Of a stretch of 64,000 nt of DNA, positions 47,504 to 53,605 are shown in pieces. The stretch is from IMG/VR virus record IMGVR_UViG_3300020182_000012; one strand, given 5' to 3'. The DNA is from a virus. The translations under genes were made by a program, and so were the position numbers. The first letter of the stretch is position 1. Each line of letters begins with the position of its first letter. The notes under the pieces were generated by a model, which was not told where the DNA came from, did no database searches, and saw only the letters and a list, made by a program, of their open reading frames with translations.

Positions 47504-49012
47504 ATGCATTTTAAAGTATTTGAAAAGCAATATCTTTCAAATTTTGAAATACTAGATTTGATCGATTTGCACAGTGTCTCAGTGTCGCCAGACTCGGCTT
47601 ATCAGACATTTCAAAAACTATACCAAGCATCATATACCAATAATCAAAGATTGGTTTTTTATAGCCAGTATACCATACCCGAAAGTTTGCTTACACACCT
47701 GTACAATGCTGCATTTGACATTGATATTAGTAATTTTTTTATAATAATTGCATGCCCAGATGCTGACAGCATTATTGCAAAAACTGGACAAGTCACTACT
47801 ACAGATTTATTCACCGGGATTGATGTTACAGTTGACAGTATTAAATTAGAAAATCAGTATACATTAAGCAACACGATATGCCCACAATTATGGGATCATC
47901 TGCGCATTAGTAATAGAGGAGAAGTATCTCCTTGTTGTGTTTACGATGGAAAAATCAGTGACTATGACAGAACCAACCAGTCTCTTGAAAGTTTATTTCA
48001 CAGCAACGAAATGAATTCTATTAGAGAAAAAATGCTCAACGGACAGAGACCAAAAGGGTGCGAAAAATGCTGGAACGCTGAAGACGGAAATATCACTAGT
48101 CATCGCATGCGACATTTGTCTTACAAAAAACAAACAATGTTAACCAGGGGGTTAGACAATCCTTTGCTGTCTAGTTTTGACTTTGCCGCCGGAAACACTT
48201 GTAATTTTAAGTGTCGAATATGCAACGTCACTGATAGCAGTTTATATGCAGTTGAGTACGAAAAATTCAAAAATACTCCATCAGGCATGGACTATTATGA
48301 TGTAAATACTCCAACTTATCAATTTAATCATTACTCTCAAGTAATCAACGAATTAAAAACTCTTGTTGCTAAAAATCAAATTGTAAACATTGATTTTTAC
48401 GGAGGAGAACCATTATACAACAAAAATGTTTTGGAATTTATATACTGGGCTGTTGATAATCAATACTCGCAAAATCTTAGACTGCATCTCAATACCAATG
48501 GTAGTATTTTTCCAGAAAAGTTAGAAAACTGCTGGAAACTTTTTAAACATATTGATATACAATTTAGTATAGATAACATTGACGATAGATTTCAACTAGA
48601 AAGAGGTAGTACTTGGCAAACAGTTGACACTAACATTAGACGTTTTATTAATTTAAAATTACCCAATGCAACAATGGGTATAATGCCAGTAATAAGCATT
48701 ATGAATATTCTTTATCTTGATGAAGTTGTTGATTGGGCTAAAAGCTTAGAACTCAATGTTCAGTTTGTTATGCTTACTCAACCAAAAGCATTTTCTGTTG
48801 CAAATCTTACCCTAATGGCTCAACAAATGTGCATTGATAAATGTGTTAATTCTACACACGAATGTGTACAATCACTTGTAAGTTACTTGCAAAACATTAC
48901 GCCCAGCAACGGTACCGAGTTTAGTCAAGCTGTTAAACACTTCGACAAAATTAGAAATCAAGACTTTCGAAAGACACATTATGATATTGCAAAAGCAATG
49001 AATCTATGTTAG
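47504..49012 (+). CDS. Radical SAM protein (Twitch-like domain plus N-terminal extension) between gp47 and gp46
   Basis: CPQLW..SPCC..CEKCW; CNFKCRIC; YGGEP; NTNG. Confidence 0.88.
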   Translation: MHFKVFEKQYLSNFEILDLIDLHSVSVSPDSAYQTFQKLYQASYTNNQRLVFYSQYTIPESLLTHLYNAAFDIDISNFFIIIACPDADSIIAKTGQVTTTDLFTGIDVTVDSIKLENQYTLSNTICPQLWDHLRISNRGEVSPCCVYDGKISDYDRTNQSLESLFHSNEMNSIREKMLNGQRPKGCEKCWNAEDGNITSHRMRHLSYKKQTMLTRGLDNPLLSSFDFAAGNTCNFKCRICNVTDSSLYAVEYEKFKNTPSGMDYYDVNTPTYQFNHYSQVINELKTLVAKNQIVNIDFYGGEPLYNKNVLEFIYWAVDNQYSQNLRLHLNTNGSIFPEKLENCWKLFKHIDIQFSIDNIDDRFQLERGSTWQTVDTNIRRFINLKLPNATMGIMPVISIMNILYLDEVVDWAKSLELNVQFVMLTQPKAFSVANLTLMAQQMCIDKCVNSTHECVQSLVSYLQNITPSNGTEFSQAVKHFDKIRNQDFRKTHYDIAKAMNLC

Positions 49013-49021: not shown

Positions 49022-50779
49022 ATGATACAACTTAAAGACCTTACAGTTAAAAACTTTATGAGTGTAGGTAACTCTACACAAGCAATTAACTTTGACAGAC
49101 AAGACCTTACATTGGTACTAGGTGAGAACCTTGACCTTGGCGGCGATGGCAGCAGAAATGGTACTGGTAAAACTACTATCATTAATGCACTTAGCTATGC
49201 ATTATACGGTCAAGCACTTACTAATATCAAACGCAACAATCTAATCAACAAGACTAACAGCAAAGGTATGTTGGTCAGTTTAGACTTTTGCATGGGAGAG
49301 AAGTGCTATCGAATCGAACGTGGCCGTAGTCCCAATGTATTGAAGTTTTATATTAACAACAGCGAACAAGAAGCTGATGACAATGCACAAGGCGATAGCA
49401 GAGAAACTCAGGGTGCTATCAACAAACTTTTGAATATGAGTCACACCATGTTCAAACACTTGGTAGCACTAAACACTTACACCGAACCGTTTTTAAGTCT
49501 CAAAACAAACGATCAACGTGAGATAATCGAGCAACTGCTGGGTATTACATTGCTCAGTGAACGTGCTGATAAAATCAAAGAACTAAGCAAAAACACCAAA
49601 GACTTAATCAAAGAAGAAGAAATGTCAATTCGGGCATTACAAAATGCCAATGAAAAAATTGGCGAGCAAGTTGATGCACTTAAACGCAGACAAACTCTTT
49701 GGTTGAATAAAAACAAAGAAGAAATTGTCAACATTGAACGTGCTATTAGTGATTTAGCACATGTTAATATCGAATCTGAACTCGAAGCACACGAACAGTT
49801 AGTTAACTGGAGAGTGATTGATAACGAGCAATCGCAATTACAAAAAGACATTGCTGCGCTACAGGCACAAGTTAGCCGAGCTGATAGAGATTTCAAAAGA
49901 ACTAAAAAGTCAATTGACAGCATCGAAGATGGTACTTGTAGCGCATGTGGACAAAGTGTTGATCACCTCGAAACACACAAACAACAAATGATTGATGCAA
50001 AAAAAGAACATCAAGATGCAGCCACCTTCCTAACAGAATTAGAGCAAGGCATTGCCACACTGTTAACTGGAAAGAAAGATGTGCCTGCGAAGCCTAAGAC
50101 ATTTTATGATAACTTAACTGATGCACACAATCACAAGTCAACACTAAGCTCTCTTGAAACGCAACTAGAAAACAAGAAGGACGAAACTGATCCTTATGTT
50201 GAGCAAATAGCTGATATGGAAACTTCAGCGTTGCAAGAAATTAGTTACGAAAAAGTAAACGACTTAACACGATTGCAAGAACATCAAGACTTCCTGTTAA
50301 AGTTGCTAACAAACAAAGATAGTTTTGTTAGAAAACGCATTATTGACCAAAACCTTTCTTATCTAAATTCTAGATTAACGCATTACTTAGATCGGATAGG
50401 TTTGCCACACACTGTTATATTTCAAAACGATCTCACAGTAGAGATCCAGGAGCTGGGCAGAGACTTGGACTTTGACAACTTGTCACGTGGTGAGCGCAAC
50501 AGACTTATACTAAGCATGAGTTGGGCGTTTCGTGATGTATGGGAGAGCTTGTATGGCTCAATCAACTTGTTGTTCATTGACGAGCTAGTAGATTCAGGCA
50601 TGGACACATCAGGTGTTGAAGCAAGTTTAGCACTGCTTAAAAAGATGGCTCGCGAACGTAACAAGAGTATCTGGCTTGTTTCGCACAAGGATGAACTTGC
50701 AGGTCGTGTAAATAACTTGCTTAAAGTTGTTAAAGAAAACGGCTTTACAAGTTATAGCAACGATGTGGAAATAATCTGA
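49022..50779 (+). CDS. gp46: Recombination ATPase gp46 (Rad50/SbcC-like)
   Basis: KNFMSVG, Walker A NGTGKTT, CSAC zinc hook, LSRGE signature, LLFIDE Walker B, SH. Confidence 0.93.
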   Translation: MIQLKDLTVKNFMSVGNSTQAINFDRQDLTLVLGENLDLGGDGSRNGTGKTTIINALSYALYGQALTNIKRNNLINKTNSKGMLVSLDFCMGEKCYRIERGRSPNVLKFYINNSEQEADDNAQGDSRETQGAINKLLNMSHTMFKHLVALNTYTEPFLSLKTNDQREIIEQLLGITLLSERADKIKELSKNTKDLIKEEEMSIRALQNANEKIGEQVDALKRRQTLWLNKNKEEIVNIERAISDLAHVNIESELEAHEQLVNWRVIDNEQSQLQKDIAALQAQVSRADRDFKRTKKSIDSIEDGTCSACGQSVDHLETHKQQMIDAKKEHQDAATFLTELEQGIATLLTGKKDVPAKPKTFYDNLTDAHNHKSTLSSLETQLENKKDETDPYVEQIADMETSALQEISYEKVNDLTRLQEHQDFLLKLLTNKDSFVRKRIIDQNLSYLNSRLTHYLDRIGLPHTVIFQNDLTVEIQELGRDLDFDNLSRGERNRLILSMSWAFRDVWESLYGSINLLFIDELVDSGMDTSGVEASLALLKKMARERNKSIWLVSHKDELAGRVNNLLKVVKENGFTSYSNDVEII

Positions 50780-50790
50780 TAAATGTTTAT

Positions 50791-51198
50791 ATGACATGGT
50801 ATTATAAAGACACCGAAGTAGAAGACATTCCGGAGGGCGCAATTGGGTTTGTGTATTTGATTACAAATACAACAAACAACCGAAAGTATATTGGTAAGAA
50901 ACTTGCACAATTTAAACGCAGCCGAAAGCCACTTAAAGGCAAAGTTAATAAACGTAGATACACTGTTGAAAGTGATTGGAAGGACTACTACGGAAGTAGC
51001 GATGCACTGTCAGCTGATGTAGAATTACTAGGCAAAGACAAGTTCAAACGTGAAATAATGTTTTGGTGTAGCAGCAAAAGCGAACTTAGCTACATCGAAG
51101 CTAGAGAACAATTTGCGCACCGGGTACTGGAAAGTAAAGACTGGTACAACGGGCACATACAAGTACGTGTGCACCAAAAAGGCATACTAAAAGAATAA
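50791..51198 (+). CDS. Short GIY-YIG nuclease-domain protein
   Basis: GFVYLITN..NNRKYIGKK, YYGSS, E...Q, YNG; 135 aa with no extra DNA-binding domains. Confidence 0.8.
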   Translation: MTWYYKDTEVEDIPEGAIGFVYLITNTTNNRKYIGKKLAQFKRSRKPLKGKVNKRRYTVESDWKDYYGSSDALSADVELLGKDKFKREIMFWCSSKSELSYIEAREQFAHRVLESKDWYNGHIQVRVHQKGILKE

Positions 51199-51210
51199 AA
51201 TTACACAATA

Positions 51211-51742
51211 GATAACTAATTGCATAACTATCATGCACAGGCAACCAAACAGAGCAATGCTCAAACTTCTTTTTAAATTTCCCTTTTAAAATTCTCAGCT
51301 ATTATAGGAACATTGTTTGGTCGAGGCACCTCGACCCACTATGAGAACATGTAGTAATTGCATGAACAGATATAGTGAGTTCCAAGGACAAGCTAACTTA
51401 AGGCTAAAATGATACAGGCTCTGTGAAACAGATACAACCTGTGCTCTTGATATATTTGCTTGAATGAGTATATCACAGGGCTCCGTTGCGAGACAAGGCT
51501 AGAGTAGGGTGTAAAGCGTAACCGCATCCGTTGTAACTATTGCAAATCTCTTTATTCAAGTGACTGACACGACTCAGATGATGATGTATGTTCGGTTATG
51601 CTTGCCCTGTGCAAGGGCAAGTATGACCAAAAAATCTAGATGATAATGAAACACTCGATTCTCTCGTGCTTAATAATATTAATCACTTGTATAAAAAAAA
51701 CTATTAAGAGCGACAGCGAATTAATAGATGTCTTTAGACATC
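51211..51742 (+). ncRNA. Candidate large structured non-coding RNA (unclassified)
   Basis: ORF-free; many hairpins with G-U pairs on the + strand; loop-to-distal pairing 51458-51465/51554-51561; two TAACTA late-like boxes at the 5' end. Confidence 0.6.
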
Positions 51743-52564
51743 TTATAATGTTAAAGAAAACTTTGATATTGTTTGTTTATGCCACTTAAATACTTTAGCA
51801 TATTCTAAATGGTATGTTCTGGAAAAATGCTCAACATCTTGTAAGTTAATTGGAAAATCTTTGAGTACAGGTATATCTGCACCAGCACTTGCAATGAGTG
51901 CTTGCATTTTCCAACTGTTACCTTCAACAGCAACAAATGGTGTTTCTGCACAGATACATGCCATAACCTCATGAAAGCGTCCAGTAACACATAGATTGCT
52001 GTTGCGCAACTGATTAACTACATCATGCCATGATTGTTTGAATATGTTTATTCGTTGCGTGTGTTTGGTGTGGTTGTGTATACTGTCAAATGCATATTGC
52101 CCTAGTGTGATGTTGTGTTGTGTTTCAACTGTTGATACATGTGGGCAATTGATATAACTAATGTCTGGGTATAAATCTGGAGTTCTTCCAAAATCGTGTT
52201 GAGCATGTTTTTGGCTATACACATCTCTTACGCTCCATTGCTGCAAATTATCGGTTACACTTTTCCAACTAGTGTCCATGTTCTGCCAAATTGAATTCAG
52301 CAGCACTGTGGGTTTATTTTGTTGTTGGGCTAAGTTTACAAAGTTTAGTAAGCTAACTGCACCTTGACGATTGTTATGCATAGTACCTTCGCCGTTAACA
52401 ACAACAGCATCAATATTATCCCAGTCGTTGTATTGTATATAAGGTACAGTCACTGGAATGCTAACCACAGCGGTATGTGGTTGCATTTGTAATTTAAGGT
52501 TTTTAATTACCTGTTTGCATCCGCTGTGATATTTAGAAGTATCATTTAACAGCAGGATGCGCAT
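51743..52564 (-). CDS. Polysaccharide pyruvyl transferase family protein
   Basis: HSGC, VVVNGEGTMH, SVRD..S, PD, TGRFH, NSWK. Confidence 0.75.
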   Translation of the reverse strand: MRILLLNDTSKYHSGCKQVIKNLKLQMQPHTAVVSIPVTVPYIQYNDWDNIDAVVVNGEGTMHNNRQGAVSLLNFVNLAQQQNKPTVLLNSIWQNMDTSWKSVTDNLQQWSVRDVYSQKHAQHDFGRTPDLYPDISYINCPHVSTVETQHNITLGQYAFDSIHNHTKHTQRINIFKQSWHDVVNQLRNSNLCVTGRFHEVMACICAETPFVAVEGNSWKMQALIASAGADIPVLKDFPINLQDVEHFSRTYHLEYAKVFKWHKQTISKFSLTL

Positions 52565-52887
52565 TAGTACTGGTCTGGAAAGTCTCTATACAGAAAATGT
52601 TGTATAGTTTCCACATCAACCAGTTGATTGAATGCATGGTGCTTAACTTCGATGTCATTTGTGTCTGTAACTACATGCTTCATTGCATCGTCGAGATCTT
52701 GCATGTTTTTAAATTCCATGTCAATTCGAAACTCTGGCAAGTCCATACTACGAAATCCAAGTTTCATTCTAGTGATGCGATAGCTGTGCAATGTAGGTAG
52801 TTCATCTAAGAACGCACTCATTTTAGTTACAAATTCGTGTGCATTAACGCCTTCATTGACGTCAGAGTAGATAGTGTAAATGTCCAT
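52564..52887 (-). CDS. Hypothetical protein (DUF6614-like)
   Basis: RITRMKLGF..LPEF.IDMEF..LDDA..H..N..LYRDFPD pattern, recalled from the family; AAGGA RBS. Confidence 0.55.
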   Translation of the reverse strand: MDIYTIYSDVNEGVNAHEFVTKMSAFLDELPTLHSYRITRMKLGFRSMDLPEFRIDMEFKNMQDLDDAMKHVVTDTNDIEVKHHAFNQLVDVETIQHFLYRDFPDQY

Positions 52888-52918: not shown

Positions 52919-53605
52919 ATGAAAATAGTCTTCAATAATGTTTTTGGCACTTTGAGCCAAGCTGATATAATCTACAATATACCAAGCCTAGTTGATGTTG
53001 ACGCCAGTGAACACGACGAAGCGTTGTCACAAGGATGGCTAGTAACTGTTGACAACGGTGAAAAAGTTTGGTATCAAAGCCGCAGTACCAGAGTAAATGT
53101 TGCCAACACTGATTATAGTCTAATAGACAATTACCAAATCACTGACAGTGCTACAAGTGAAATGGATCATGTGTACAATGCCTACTGTTTGAAAAAAGGC
53201 TTTAAGAAAATGTACGCACTAGATGATCAACTCAGTTGGGATATCTATGTTCAGTATCATCATGATGACGAGCTAGTAGCATGGAGCAAGCTACGTAGAT
53301 ACAGCCCCAGCAGCATCGAAACAGCATTATTTGCATGGGACTATAGTGAACCGCATTTGCGGTTGGGCGAACGCACAATGCAGCACGAAATTGCTTGGGC
53401 TAAACAATCTGGATATTCATATGTGTACATGGGAAGTGGGTATGAAAAAATATGCACTTACAAAAGCCGAGTTGATGGATTTGAGTGGTGGACCGGGCAG
53501 CATTGGAGCACTGATGTTGATCACTATGTGTGGTTGTGCAAAAGAGACACCAAGCTGTTAAATTCTAAAGTCGTGGATCTTCACGATTTGAAAATAGACC
53601 AGTAA
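52919..53605 (+). CDS. ATE1/Bpt-like aminoacyl-tRNA-protein transferase (GNAT fold)
   Basis: ALSQGW; LVAWS; WDY..P.LRLG....HEI.WAK..G..YVYMG.GY....YK resembles the ATE C-terminal domain. Confidence 0.6.
   Translation: MKIVFNNVFGTLSQADIIYNIPSLVDVDASEHDEALSQGWLVTVDNGEKVWYQSRSTRVNVANTDYSLIDNYQITDSATSEMDHVYNAYCLKKGFKKMYALDDQLSWDIYVQYHHDDELVAWSKLRRYSPSSIETALFAWDYSEPHLRLGERTMQHEIAWAKQSGYSYVYMGSGYEKICTYKSRVDGFEWWTGQHWSTDVDHYVWLCKRDTKLLNSKVVDLHDLKIDQ

What the first reader, a model, noticed from the sequence alone, without database searches (positions are those of the whole stretch)
51211..51660. Candidate undescribed ~450-500-nt structured ncRNA with a pseudoknot, downstream of a minimal GIY-YIG gene
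Seen in sequence: this is the largest ORF-free stretch in the window and is packed with hairpins. They include GGTCGAG-GCAC-CTCGACC (51319-51336); CACTAT/ATAGTG (51337-42/51372-77) enclosing CATGTAG/TTGCATG; ACAGG/CCTGT enclosing TCTGT-GAA-ACAGA (51414-51442); TGATATATTT/GAGTATATCA (51448-51475); GGGTGT/GCATCC; TTGTAA/TTGCAA; and a 15-bp stem GGTTATGCTTGCCCT/AGGGCAAGTATGACC (51594-51628). The non-Watson-Crick pairs are G-U on the + strand, which points to a + strand RNA. The loop GCTTGAAT (51458-65) is complementary to ATTCAAGT (51554-61), giving a pseudoknot, and TGAGTT (51376-81) can pair with GACTCA (51571-76) to close a multi-stem domain. Two late-promoter-like boxes (GATAACTA 51211-18, CATAACTA 51223-30) sit at the 5' end. 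I do not recognise tRNA, tmRNA, RNase P or group I/II intron cores. Inference: a late-expressed ribozyme-like or scaffold RNA, possibly partnered with the adjacent 135-aa GIY-YIG protein, which lacks DNA-binding accessory domains, as a nuclease-RNA pair. Alternatives are a packaging RNA or a replication-primer RNA.
Basis: partly seen in the sequence, partly recalled or inferred. Interest (0 to 1): 0.88.

Follow-up and report, generated by a model that had tools for sequence, protein, structure and literature searches.

The report
Twin-box structured RNA of T4-like phages
The gene-free stretch behind a small nuclease gene of this uncultured T4-like phage encodes a real, knotted RNA of about 430 bases. 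It is an uncatalogued sister of the orphan Polynucleobacter-1 RNA, and it carries the same 7-letter word twice for a reader that is still unknown.

Summary
Window 51315-51746 (+ strand) folds into about 20 helices and two pseudoknots. Covariation in 49 related phage contigs supports them: 90.6% of cells are paired against 78.5% when shuffled, and 74 of 103 pairs change on both sides.

The RNA matches no Rfam family. Its 3' body is nevertheless homologous to the uncatalogued 3' part of RNAs whose 5' head is Rfam RF01718 (Polynucleobacter-1, function unknown). The window carries a different head.

The family is common in uncultivated T4-like phages, with at least 199 IMG/VR loci and one copy in each of two complete 346-kb genomes. 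I found it in none of the three cultured phages searched; 121Q gave only a weak hit.

It usually follows a conserved 135-146 aa GIY-YIG gene (91 of 103 loci), but the link is not obligatory. In some relatives a PD-(D/E)XK nuclease or an unrelated gene sits upstream instead, and GIY-YIG homologues occur without the RNA. A guide-RNA role is therefore not favoured.

The oddest feature is two identical 7-nt words (AGAUGAU at 51576-82 and 51638-44) flanking a hairpin. The word changed dozens of times in the family, and both copies changed together. I found no complement in the RNA, its flanks or two complete genomes.

The function is unknown. I favour a two-site display RNA for an outside reader. 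Earlier agents of this scan found the same family on other genomes.

The parts
50791..51198 (+). Upstream gene: 135-aa protein with only a SegE-type GIY-YIG catalytic domain. It is a conserved core gene of this phage group and the usual, but not obligatory, upstream neighbour of the RNA.
   Evidence: Pfam PF19835 E 3.9e-36. Homologues of 50-99% identity occur in 74 of 80 gp46-anchored loci. It lies upstream of the RNA in 91 of 103 loci.
51199..51314 (+). Spacer found only in the window's own clade. It holds a small hairpin (GAGC-AAU-GCUC, 51252-62), a U-rich run and a -10-like TATTAT (51300-05).
   Evidence: Alignable only with L001, L004 and L006. The promoter scan lists nothing here. Whether a promoter is present is unknown.
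51315..51477 (+). Family-A 'head': P1 (51315-23/51330-36), P2 (51337-40/51374-77) with an inner hairpin (51349-63), hairpin 51390-94/51402-05, P5 (51411-18/51438-45) with an inner stem (51422-25/51433-36), and P6 (51448-57/51466-77). The P6 loop, 51458-65, is the 5' strand of pseudoknot 1.
   Evidence: Helices 1-3 and 5-8: 86-97% of cells paired, most pairs changing on both sides. RF01718 does not match this head.
51478..51561 (+). Shared core: hairpin 51478-83/51495-500; helix 51501-04/51547-50 enclosing hairpins 51507-11/51525-29 and 51532-35/51540-43. A kissing-loop pseudoknot 2 joins 51485-89 (GUUGC) to 51518-22 (GUAAC). The 3' strand of pseudoknot 1 is at 51554-61.
   Evidence: Helices 9-15. 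Pseudoknot 1 is 92% paired and pseudoknot 2 is 99% paired, with changes on both sides. Model R1 scores the window at 121.6 bits. nhmmer links this part to RF01718-bearing loci.
51572..51584 (+). Twin box 1: A-CUC-AGAUGAU-G-A. The 7-nt word is at 51576-51582.
   Evidence: It is identical to box 2 in 115 of 122 family members, across 13 different words.
51594..51628 (+). Long hairpin between the boxes. The conserved stem is 51601-08/51613-20. The outer 7 bp (51594-600/51622-28) are specific to the window's clade. In the family, UGAC at 51624-27 may instead pair with 51379-82.
   Evidence: Helix 17 (92% paired, 4 pairs changing on both sides). For the outer stem and the alternative helix 4; helix 4 has little covariation and is uncertain.
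51634..51646 (+). Twin box 2: A-UCU-AGAUGAU-A-A. The 7-nt word is at 51638-51644, 62 nt after box 1.
   Evidence: Spacing in the family is 48-62 nt.
51647..51701 (+). Variable A-rich linker. In many relatives it holds UCGCUUCGCUC, the complement of the apex of the next hairpin. The window has only a weak version.
   Evidence: Alignments.
51702..51746 (+). Two 3' hairpins. The first is 51702-07/51720-25, with tandem G-A pairs, a 2-bp GC stem and the GNRA loop GACA (51712-15). The terminal hairpin is 51726-33/51737-44 and has no U-tract. This is the likely 3' end, just before the convergent gene at 51743-52564 (-).
   Evidence: Helices 18-21: 84-92% paired, 15 of 16 pairs changing on both sides. 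No intrinsic terminator was called here.

Best explanation
Shown: window 51315-51746 (+) is a gene for a compact non-coding RNA of about 430 nt with two pseudoknots. It belongs to a large family in uncultivated T4-like phages. The family is modular. Its 5' heads are interchangeable: one is Rfam Polynucleobacter-1, the window has another, and L070 has a third kind of body. Its 3' end is constant: a 'twin-box module' (word, hairpin, same word) followed by two hairpins.

The RNA sits at the end of the + strand operon that includes the gp46 (SbcC-like) gene and a small nuclease gene, just before convergent genes. In most relatives it begins a few tens of bases after the upstream stop codon. From that I infer it is made as the 3' extension of that operon's transcript.

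Inferred mechanism (about 35% likely): the folded body is a scaffold that holds out two unpaired copies of one 7-nt word (AGAUGAU here). The RNA works in trans as a two-site binder of one strictly Watson-Crick reader. Differences in that strand between hosts would drive both boxes to change together.

The RNA is not a dedicated guide for the neighbouring GIY-YIG protein. That protein looks like the operon's structure-specific nuclease; the resolvase-like role is inferred from its position and from its replacement by a PD-(D/E)XK nuclease.
For: Real structured RNA on the + strand:
- Fold z-score is -3.05.
- 103 pairs were tested on 49 sequences. 90.6% of cells are paired against 78.5% when shuffled and 36-45% when the partner is slid. 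74 pairs change on both sides. The covariation score is 0.349 against 0.148. No shuffle of 500 reached the observed values.
- Strand-specific G-U pairs are abundant.
- There is no conserved ORF; the median longest ATG-ORF is 25 aa.

Family and modularity:
- nhmmer with the window's stretch alone hits 40 loci, always on the gp46 strand.
- R1 hits 42 of 80 gp46-anchored loci.
- RF01718 matches the heads of family-B loci (77-122 bits) whose 3' bodies match the window.
- L070 has another body but the same twin-box module and 3' hairpins.

Twin boxes:
- The 7-mer is identical in 115 of 122 copies, across 13 different words.
- On a tree built from the rest of the RNA, positions b1, b5 and b7 change at least 21, 19 and 16 times at box 1. 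The joint state of both boxes changes only 23, 19 and 17 times. Only 2, 0 and 3 of 118 leaves are discordant.
- No complement lies inside the RNA or is enriched within 5-10 kb.
- Two complete genomes hold no partner beyond the control.
- Mixed A/G states are nearly absent, although ordinary helices of the same RNA show G-U intermediates in 13-40% of sequences. Identity itself is therefore under selection.

Not a GIY-YIG guide.
Against: No reader has been identified, so the central step is inference by exclusion.

- Four positions of the word (G2, A3, U4, A6) and the flanks CUC/UCU never vary. That fits a structural or protein-recognition role as well as it fits pairing.
- Apparent 'concerted changes' could partly be recombination that swaps a 60-nt block holding both boxes.
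- No cultured phage with the RNA was found.
- Co-transcription with the operon is inferred from spacing only. The window's own clade has a 117-nt spacer that could hold a terminator and a promoter.
Confidence: 0.35

Rival explanations
1. Identity is needed because one box pairs with the complementary strand of the other box. This could happen as slipped-strand DNA, with the hairpin extruded, as a register-shifted RNA:DNA hybrid on the RNA's own gene, or by a polymerase that realigns from one box to the other. The locus would then act as a recombination or replication start site or as a programmed bypass, perhaps cut by the neighbouring hairpin and junction nucleases (gp46/47, GIY-YIG or PD-(D/E)XK). 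Earlier agents of this scan proposed an origin of this kind.
For: - Only two substitutions are needed per change, which fits the many concerted changes.
- It explains why no third partner sequence is found.
- It explains why mixed A/G states are almost absent, because DNA pairing or realignment does not tolerate wobble.
- Direct repeats flanking a stable, nearly wobble-free hairpin (helix 17) are the classic slippage substrate.
- The element lies next to SbcCD-like and resolvase-like nuclease genes.
Against: - The rest of the element is selected as a folded + strand RNA, with abundant G-U pairs. This model does not need that.
- The flanks CUC and UCU are invariant and different, and would mismatch in cross-pairing.
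- Four word positions never vary.
- No family member lacking the hairpin module was seen among 118.
- Cumulative GC skew shows no turning point at the locus in two complete genomes.
- The locus is a point where transcription converges, which is not typical of origins.
Confidence: 0.2
2. The two boxes are processing sites. A nuclease cuts at the same place in both, either releasing the roughly 55-nt hairpin as a small RNA or allowing the flanks to be rejoined.
For: - The two identical sites bracket a conserved hairpin at a fairly constant distance of 48-62 nt.
- A nuclease gene lies upstream in most loci.
- Type III toxin-antitoxin RNAs are cut at repeated identical sites (general knowledge).
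Against: - A protein nuclease would keep its site constant. It would not let the site vary while staying identical in both places.
- No internal guide complementary to the boxes exists.
- There are no expression data.
Confidence: 0.1
3. One reading: the RNA is the partner of the adjacent minimal GIY-YIG nuclease, acting as its guide, scaffold or inhibitor.
For: - Adjacency: GIY-YIG lies upstream in 91 of 103 loci, and directly adjacent in 80.
- The protein has no DNA-binding domain.
- In four GIY-less loci a different small nuclease holds the same slot. This could mean that 'a nuclease' is what matters.
Against: - 11 loci have an inserted gene.
- Several loci have unrelated upstream genes: a phosphorylase, a tropism-determinant-like protein and a baseplate protein.
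- GIY-YIG homologues occur without the RNA in Melnitz and, judging by the absence of DNA matches, in the phage collection at large.
- Replacement by a non-homologous nuclease fits conserved gene order in a recombination module better than a specific ribonucleoprotein.
- A 7-nt word is short for a guide.
Confidence: 0.07
4. The RNA is a cis-acting 3' untranslated region that stabilises or terminates the operon transcript and shields the convergent genes from read-through.
For: - It always lies at the 3' end of a + strand operon, facing convergent genes, and ends in two hairpins.
- In family B a conserved stretch can pair with the apex of the penultimate hairpin, which looks like a switch.
Against: - About 20 helices, two pseudoknots and twin boxes are far more than termination or stability needs.
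- The terminal hairpin has no U-tract.
- In some loci a + strand gene follows.
Confidence: 0.08

Closest known systems
Polynucleobacter-1 RNA motif (Rfam RF01718; Weinberg et al. 2010, Genome Biol 11:R31, PMC2864571)
   Same: It belongs to the same RNA family in the wide sense. Loci whose 5' head matches RF01718 at 77-122 bits have a 3' body homologous to the window's (nhmmer E 3e-11 to 3e-6; R1). The gene context is the same: downstream of a small phage-type gene, as the discoverers noted. The habitat is the same (fresh and marine water). The function is unknown in both.
   Different: The Rfam model covers only the 141-nt head of the sister branch. The window's head is different and does not match the model even at E 10. 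The shared 3' body (kissing-loop core, twin boxes, terminal hairpins) is not part of any Rfam model. The discoverers classed the motif as possibly cis-regulatory and found no example in a purified phage.
GOLLD and ROOL RNAs (large ornate RNAs of phages and prophages, Rfam)
   Same: They are large, elaborate, pseudoknotted, phage-borne RNAs of unknown function with no adjacent obligatory protein gene.
   Different: There is no sequence or structure match. Those RNAs are larger and usually lie near tRNA genes. They have no twin boxes.
Multi-site decoy or seed RNAs (CsrB/RsmZ-type sponges; sRNAs with repeated seed motifs such as RsaE)
   Same: This is a likeness of mechanism only: a folded RNA that shows the same short motif more than once to one partner.
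   Different: In those RNAs the motif is fixed by a conserved protein or by the Shine-Dalgarno sequence. Here the word drifts, and both copies follow each other. Half of the family has AGA rather than the GGA that CsrA needs.
T4 gene 60 bypass cassette (matched take-off and landing sites around a 50-nt gap with a hairpin, next to the mobA homing-endonuclease gene; Bonocora et al. 2011, recalled from memory)
   Same: This is a formal likeness: two matching short sequences 48-62 nt apart, a hairpin between them, and a nuclease gene beside them in a T4-like phage.
   Different: Gene 60 is coding and only a 3-nt codon must match. Here there is no reading frame, the match is 7 nt, and the spacing is not a multiple of three.
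R-loop and primer origins (ColE1 RNA II; T4 oriF/oriG)
   Same: These are what the second rival would work like: a structured transcript that pairs back onto its own DNA.
   Different: No origin signal was found. Those origins do not need twin identical words.

Membership tests
Rfam RF01718 Polynucleobacter-1 | Match to the family's covariance model at its gathering score (37 bits) | tested here: not met
   There is no match in the whole window at gathering thresholds, and none at E up to 10 in 51100-51850. Sister loci score 77-122 bits.
Rfam RF01718 Polynucleobacter-1 | Homology of the rest of the RNA to RNAs that carry the motif | tested here: met
   The window's stretch alone hits L062, L021, L015, L028, L034 and L063 (E 3e-11 to 3e-6). 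The same six loci carry RF01718 heads 150-220 nt upstream.
Rfam RF01718 Polynucleobacter-1 | Position downstream of the small GOS11034 / P-SSM2-like gene (Weinberg et al. 2010, supplement) | tested here: inconclusive
   The window's upstream GIY-YIG protein has a 46% identical homologue in P-SSM2. I could not verify that this is the locus PSSM2_218 named in the paper.
Twin-box RNA family (this scan's working name) | Two identical 7-nt words RGAURAW with flanks A-CUC and A-UCU, 48-62 nt apart around a conserved hairpin, followed by a GA/GNRA-capped hairpin and a terminal hairpin | tested here: met
   The window has AGAUGAU at 51576-82 and 51638-44 with the right flanks, the hairpin 51601-20, and the two 3' hairpins.
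Guide RNAs tied to a nuclease gene (HEARO / IscB and TnpB omega-RNAs) | Obligatory adjacency to the nuclease gene, and a match to the Rfam models | tested here: not met
   There is no Rfam match. Adjacency is broken in 23 of 103 loci: 11 have an inserted gene and 12 have no GIY-YIG. The nuclease also occurs without the RNA.
Group I intron | Match to the intron model, and exons of one gene on both sides | tested here: not met
   There is no Intron_gpI match at E up to 10. The upstream gene ends with a stop codon and the downstream gene is on the other strand.
tRNA / tmRNA | Detected by ARAGORN | tested here: not met
   No tRNA or tmRNA is found in the window.
GOLLD / ROOL / other large Rfam RNAs | Match to the Rfam model | tested here: not met
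SegE-type GIY-YIG nuclease (the neighbouring protein) | Match to Pfam PF19835 above its cut-off | tested here: met
   124.4 bits against a cut-off of 25. No solved structure is close by sequence. Activity was not tested.

The most novel reading that the evidence does not exclude
The twin boxes are kept letter-identical because the element works by pairing one box with the complement of the other. That could be a programmed realignment, or a slipped-strand or R-loop structure at a structured-RNA gene. It would be used by T4-like phages to start recombination-dependent replication, or to make two RNA forms, and would be processed by the neighbouring hairpin and junction nucleases. This would be a new kind of RNA/DNA element with 'identical' rather than complementary covariation.
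Probability: 0.2. Interest if true: 0.9.

Novelty: new variant of a known kind. Interest (0 to 1): 0.68.

Why it matters
Large, intricately folded RNAs of unknown function are rare, and past examples have led to new biochemistry. This one is among the commonest in uncultivated T4-like phages of lakes and seas, yet only a 141-nt fragment of one branch is catalogued.

This report does three things. It gives a full-length structure for a second branch. It shows that the family is modular. It isolates the constant part, the twin-box module.

The evolution of the twin boxes is unusual: the two copies change identically rather than in a complementary way, and mixed states are almost never seen. That pattern points to a reader or a mechanism that has not been described, and it gives a direct experimental handle: mutate one box, or both.

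Tried and rejected
- **Known RNA families.** Rfam gave nothing at gathering or permissive thresholds for the window; only chance miRNA-like hits at E about 1. ARAGORN found nothing.
- **DNA similarity to cultured phages.** blastn of the window's stretch, of the 9-kb neighbourhood and of a family-B copy against 50,697 phage records found no match.
- **Model searches of cultured phages.** PA5oct gave only a chance-level R1 hit (E 0.57) and no R2 hit. Its published ncRNA001-004 lie elsewhere. Melnitz gave nothing. 121Q gave only a weak R1 hit (E 0.015).
- **Bacterial genomes.** 120 exact matches to the core pattern, found in GC-rich genomes, were all chance. None of the 80 listed passed model R1.
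- **Partner for the boxes.** I found none inside the RNA. None was enriched in 1.09 Mb of flanks (66 own-word complements against about 71 for control words). The window holds none. Two complete genomes hold no 13-nt partner beyond the control. An apparent excess of the motif in G005 turned out to be unrelated coding sequence. A shared 12-mer in G007 and G008 had unrelated contexts. A search for a co-varying in-frame target in orthologous genes was swamped by wobble matches.
- **A wobble-compatible 'GGG...U' reader for the flanks.** The four fixed differences between the flanks are all transitions, which such a reader would tolerate. But positions -3 and +7 could equally form a C-G or U-A pair within each site.
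- **Boxes as apical loops of covarying hairpins.** Closing stems are no more common than when partners are swapped between sequences.
- **Other readings of the boxes.** I considered a hammerhead, C/D-box or k-turn reading, and a CsrA-site reading. I dropped them because the needed positions vary.
- **Coding or ribosome-bypass reading.** Rejected: there is no conserved frame and the box spacing is not in multiples of three.
- **Origin signal from GC skew.** None.
- **Model R2 of the twin-box module.** It came out as sequence only, because RNAalifold drew no pair on that alignment.
Full report
**What is there**

The window is part of an uncultured T4-like myovirus. Around the finding lie, in order:
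- a radical-SAM/SPASM gene (47504-49012, +)
- a gp46/SbcC-like recombination nuclease subunit (49022-50779, +)
- a 135-aa protein made only of a SegE-type GIY-YIG domain (50791-51198, +)
- the gene-free stretch (51199-51742)
- convergent genes on the - strand: a polysaccharide pyruvyl transferase (51743-52564), DUF6614 (52564-52887) and, further on, a T4-type baseplate hub.

By gp46, the nearest named phages are the jumbo phages PA5oct (50% identity), Phosso and Atu_ph07. By the GIY-YIG protein, the nearest is the marine methylophage Melnitz (58%).

**The observation**

The + strand of 51199-51742 folds at -138 kcal/mol, 3.05 sd better than dinucleotide shuffles. The - strand reaches only 2.0 sd. 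Rfam has no match at gathering thresholds in the whole window, and only chance hits at E about 1 in a permissive scan of 51100-51850. ARAGORN finds nothing.

**Conservation**

Using gp46 as an anchor I fetched 80 related IMG/VR loci. nhmmer with the window's stretch alone found a homologue in 40 of them. It was always on the gp46 strand and always downstream of gp46 at a variable distance, although gp46 itself is only 60-80% identical in protein. After merging I had 123 distinct full-length copies. A covariance model of the shared core (R1) hits 42 of the 80 anchored loci, all on the + strand. Two complete 346-kb genomes each hold exactly one copy.

**Structure**

I aligned 49 copies of the window's type ('family A', alignment A3). 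I then tested a structure of 103 pairs in 21 helices, including two pseudoknots.
- 90.6% of cells form standard pairs, against 78.5% after shuffling partners and 36-45% after sliding the partner by 1-3 columns.
- 74 pairs show changes on both sides.
- The covariation score is 0.349, against 0.148 shuffled and 0.05-0.09 slid.
- No shuffle of 500 reached the observed value on any measure.

I found a second, kissing-loop pseudoknot (51485-89 with 51518-22), 99% paired. Many pairs are G-U on the + strand in most sequences, which fixes the strand.

TGAGTT/GACTCA is not kept in the family, and the outer half of the '15-bp stem' is peculiar to the window's small clade. No reading frame is conserved.

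The RNA runs from about 51315 to about 51746. In most relatives the first helix starts a few tens of bases after the upstream stop codon.

**Relation to what is known**

Notes from earlier agents of this scan pointed to the Rfam motif Polynucleobacter-1. I tested this. The window does not match RF01718 at any threshold. Six loci of the sister branch ('family B') match it at 77-122 bits. The match covers their 5' 140 nt only, and their next 300 nt are homologous to the window's 3' body.

So the catalogued motif is the head of one branch of a longer RNA. The window has a different, uncatalogued head on the same body. A third form (L070) has yet another body but keeps the last part: twin boxes, hairpin and two 3' hairpins.

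The only paper in the held library that mentions the motif is its discovery paper. Its supplement notes that most examples lie downstream of a small gene with a possible homologue in cyanophage P-SSM2, and that none was found in a purified phage.

I also found none in cultured phages:
- blastn against 50,697 phage records gave no match.
- Model searches of PA5oct and Melnitz were negative.
- E. coli phage 121Q gave only a weak hit in a 612-nt gene-free gap.
- Exact pattern matches in bacterial genomes were chance; none of those tested passed R1.

**The nuclease link**

The GIY-YIG gene is a conserved core gene of these phages, not a mobile one. It lies upstream of the RNA on the same strand in 91 of 103 loci that have enough sequence. 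In 80 it is directly adjacent, and in 11 another gene lies between.

Of the 12 loci without it, two (L151 and L188) are doubtful members. In the rest, four have a PF24608 PD-(D/E)XK (Hjc-like) nuclease in the same slot after gp46. Others have a phosphorylase, a tropism-determinant-like protein or a baseplate protein. GIY-YIG homologues are widespread in phage records where the RNA was not found, and Melnitz has the gene but not the RNA.

The simplest reading is a conserved recombination module (gp46 plus a small structure-specific nuclease, with a gp47/SbcD gene ahead of gp46 in PA5oct) with the RNA gene at its end. A dedicated nuclease-RNA pair is less likely.

**The twin boxes**

Mutual-information analysis of 122 copies gave an unexpected top signal: pairs of columns that are identical rather than complementary. 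They belong to two 13-nt sites. In the window these are A-CUC-AGAUGAU-G-A (51572-84) and A-UCU-AGAUGAU-A-A (51634-46), and they flank the conserved hairpin.
- The 7-nt word is identical at both sites in 115 of 122 copies, although 13 different words occur (AGAUGAU, GGAUGAU, GGAUAAU, GGAUGAA, ACGAAAU, UGGUAAU and others). The spacing is 48-62 nt.
- Word positions 2, 3, 4 and 6 are nearly fixed. Positions 1, 5 and 7 vary. The flanks CUC and UCU never vary.
- On a tree made from the rest of the RNA, positions 1, 5 and 7 change at least 21, 19 and 16 times at site 1. The joint state of both sites changes only 23, 19 and 17 times, and 2, 0 and 3 of 118 leaves are discordant.

Ordinary helices of the same RNA show G-U intermediates in 13-40% of sequences, so the near absence of mixed states means identity itself is selected.

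I searched for a complement and found none:
- not inside the RNA
- not enriched in 1.09 Mb of flanking sequence
- not in the window
- not in two complete genomes beyond a control.

Leads from pattern searches proved to be unrelated coding sequence. Stems that would close the boxes into hairpin loops are no more frequent than with swapped partners.

**How it most likely works**

What is shown: this is a stand-alone, strand-specific, highly structured RNA gene with a modular build, and its invariant part is the twin-box module.

What is inferred: it is made as the 3' extension of the recombination operon's transcript. The body acts as a scaffold that exposes two copies of one word.

For the reading of the word I weigh two ideas.
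- **(a) One strict Watson-Crick reader outside the phage genome.** Its variation between hosts would force both boxes to follow. This fits the missing partner, the rarity of mixed states and ordinary phage biology. I give it about 35%.
- **(b) One box must match the complement of the other.** This could be slipped DNA, a shifted RNA:DNA hybrid or a polymerase realignment. It needs only two substitutions per change, and it fits the hairpin-between-repeats layout and the nuclease neighbours. It leaves the elaborate RNA fold, the invariant flanks and the lack of any origin signal unexplained. I give it about 20%.

Processing sites, a nuclease partner and a cis-acting 3' UTR each get 10% or less.

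**Limits**

- No cultured carrier is known.
- Concerted changes may be inflated by recombination of a block holding both boxes.
- Helix 4 (51379-82 with 51624-27) and the small stem 51564-66/51575-77 have little covariation.

**Verdict**

The feature is real and widespread. It is a new-headed variant of a catalogued but unexplained RNA, and its mode of evolution is unusual. The guide-RNA idea is not favoured. The same family was found by earlier agents of this scan on other genomes. I re-tested their main claims here: the Rfam link, occurrence without the nuclease, and the twin word.

Noticed in passing
L100:3893-4423(-), L111:2614-3126(+), L180:5043-5549(-), L162:9422-9925(-): In relatives that lack the GIY-YIG gene, a PF24608 PD-(D/E)XK (Hjc-like) nuclease occupies the same slot between gp46 and the RNA. 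A non-homologous nuclease has replaced it at a conserved position.
   Followed up: partly
L070:3533-4044 (+): This is a third form of the RNA. Its body is not found by model R1 or Rfam, but it has the same twin-box module (ACUC-ACAUGAA / AUCU-ACAUGAA), hairpin and two 3' hairpins. Its fold z-score is -3.7. Five other loci with GIY-YIG but no R1 hit (L029, L042, L060, L061, L079) may hold similar forms.
   Followed up: partly
Family-B loci, e.g. L028:6605-6690 and L021:2975-3050; window 51647-51725 (weak): A conserved UCGCUUCGCUC in the linker is the exact complement of the apex (GAGCGA-N-AGCGA) of the penultimate hairpin, with one bulged base. The two foldings exclude each other, which suggests a switch. 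Only part of the family has this stretch.
   Followed up: no
L388:1501-1660 (Escherichia phage 121Q, NC_025447 193155-193314): A weak full-length hit of model R1 (21.7 bits, E 0.015) lies in a 612-nt gene-free gap between genes 415 and 416. No clear twin boxes are visible. It may be the distant relative that another agent reported in cultured E. coli jumbo phages.
   Followed up: partly
window 47504-49012, 51743-52564, 52919-53605: These are unusual cargo genes for a phage: a radical-SAM/SPASM protein, a polysaccharide pyruvyl transferase, and a protein with the C-terminal domain of arginyl-tRNA-protein transferase (ATE_C).
   Followed up: no
G004 (346,856 bp, terminal repeats) and G007 (345,154 bp): Complete genomes of this phage group carry 26-27 tRNA genes in one cluster plus a tmRNA-like gene called by ARAGORN, including three tRNA genes with anticodon CAU. 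Each has a single copy of the twin-box RNA.
   Followed up: no
L081:10018-11530 (PA5oct, NC_071039 75667-77179): There is a gene-poor stretch of about 1.5 kb between the RusA-like resolvase and the baseplate hub, at a position comparable to the window's RNA. Neither model matches it, and it is not one of the four published PA5oct ncRNAs.
   Followed up: partly
window 51640-51789 (+): A 49-aa ORF starts at the AUG inside box 2 and overlaps the end of the convergent gene. It is not conserved in relatives, many of which have AUA there.
   Followed up: yes
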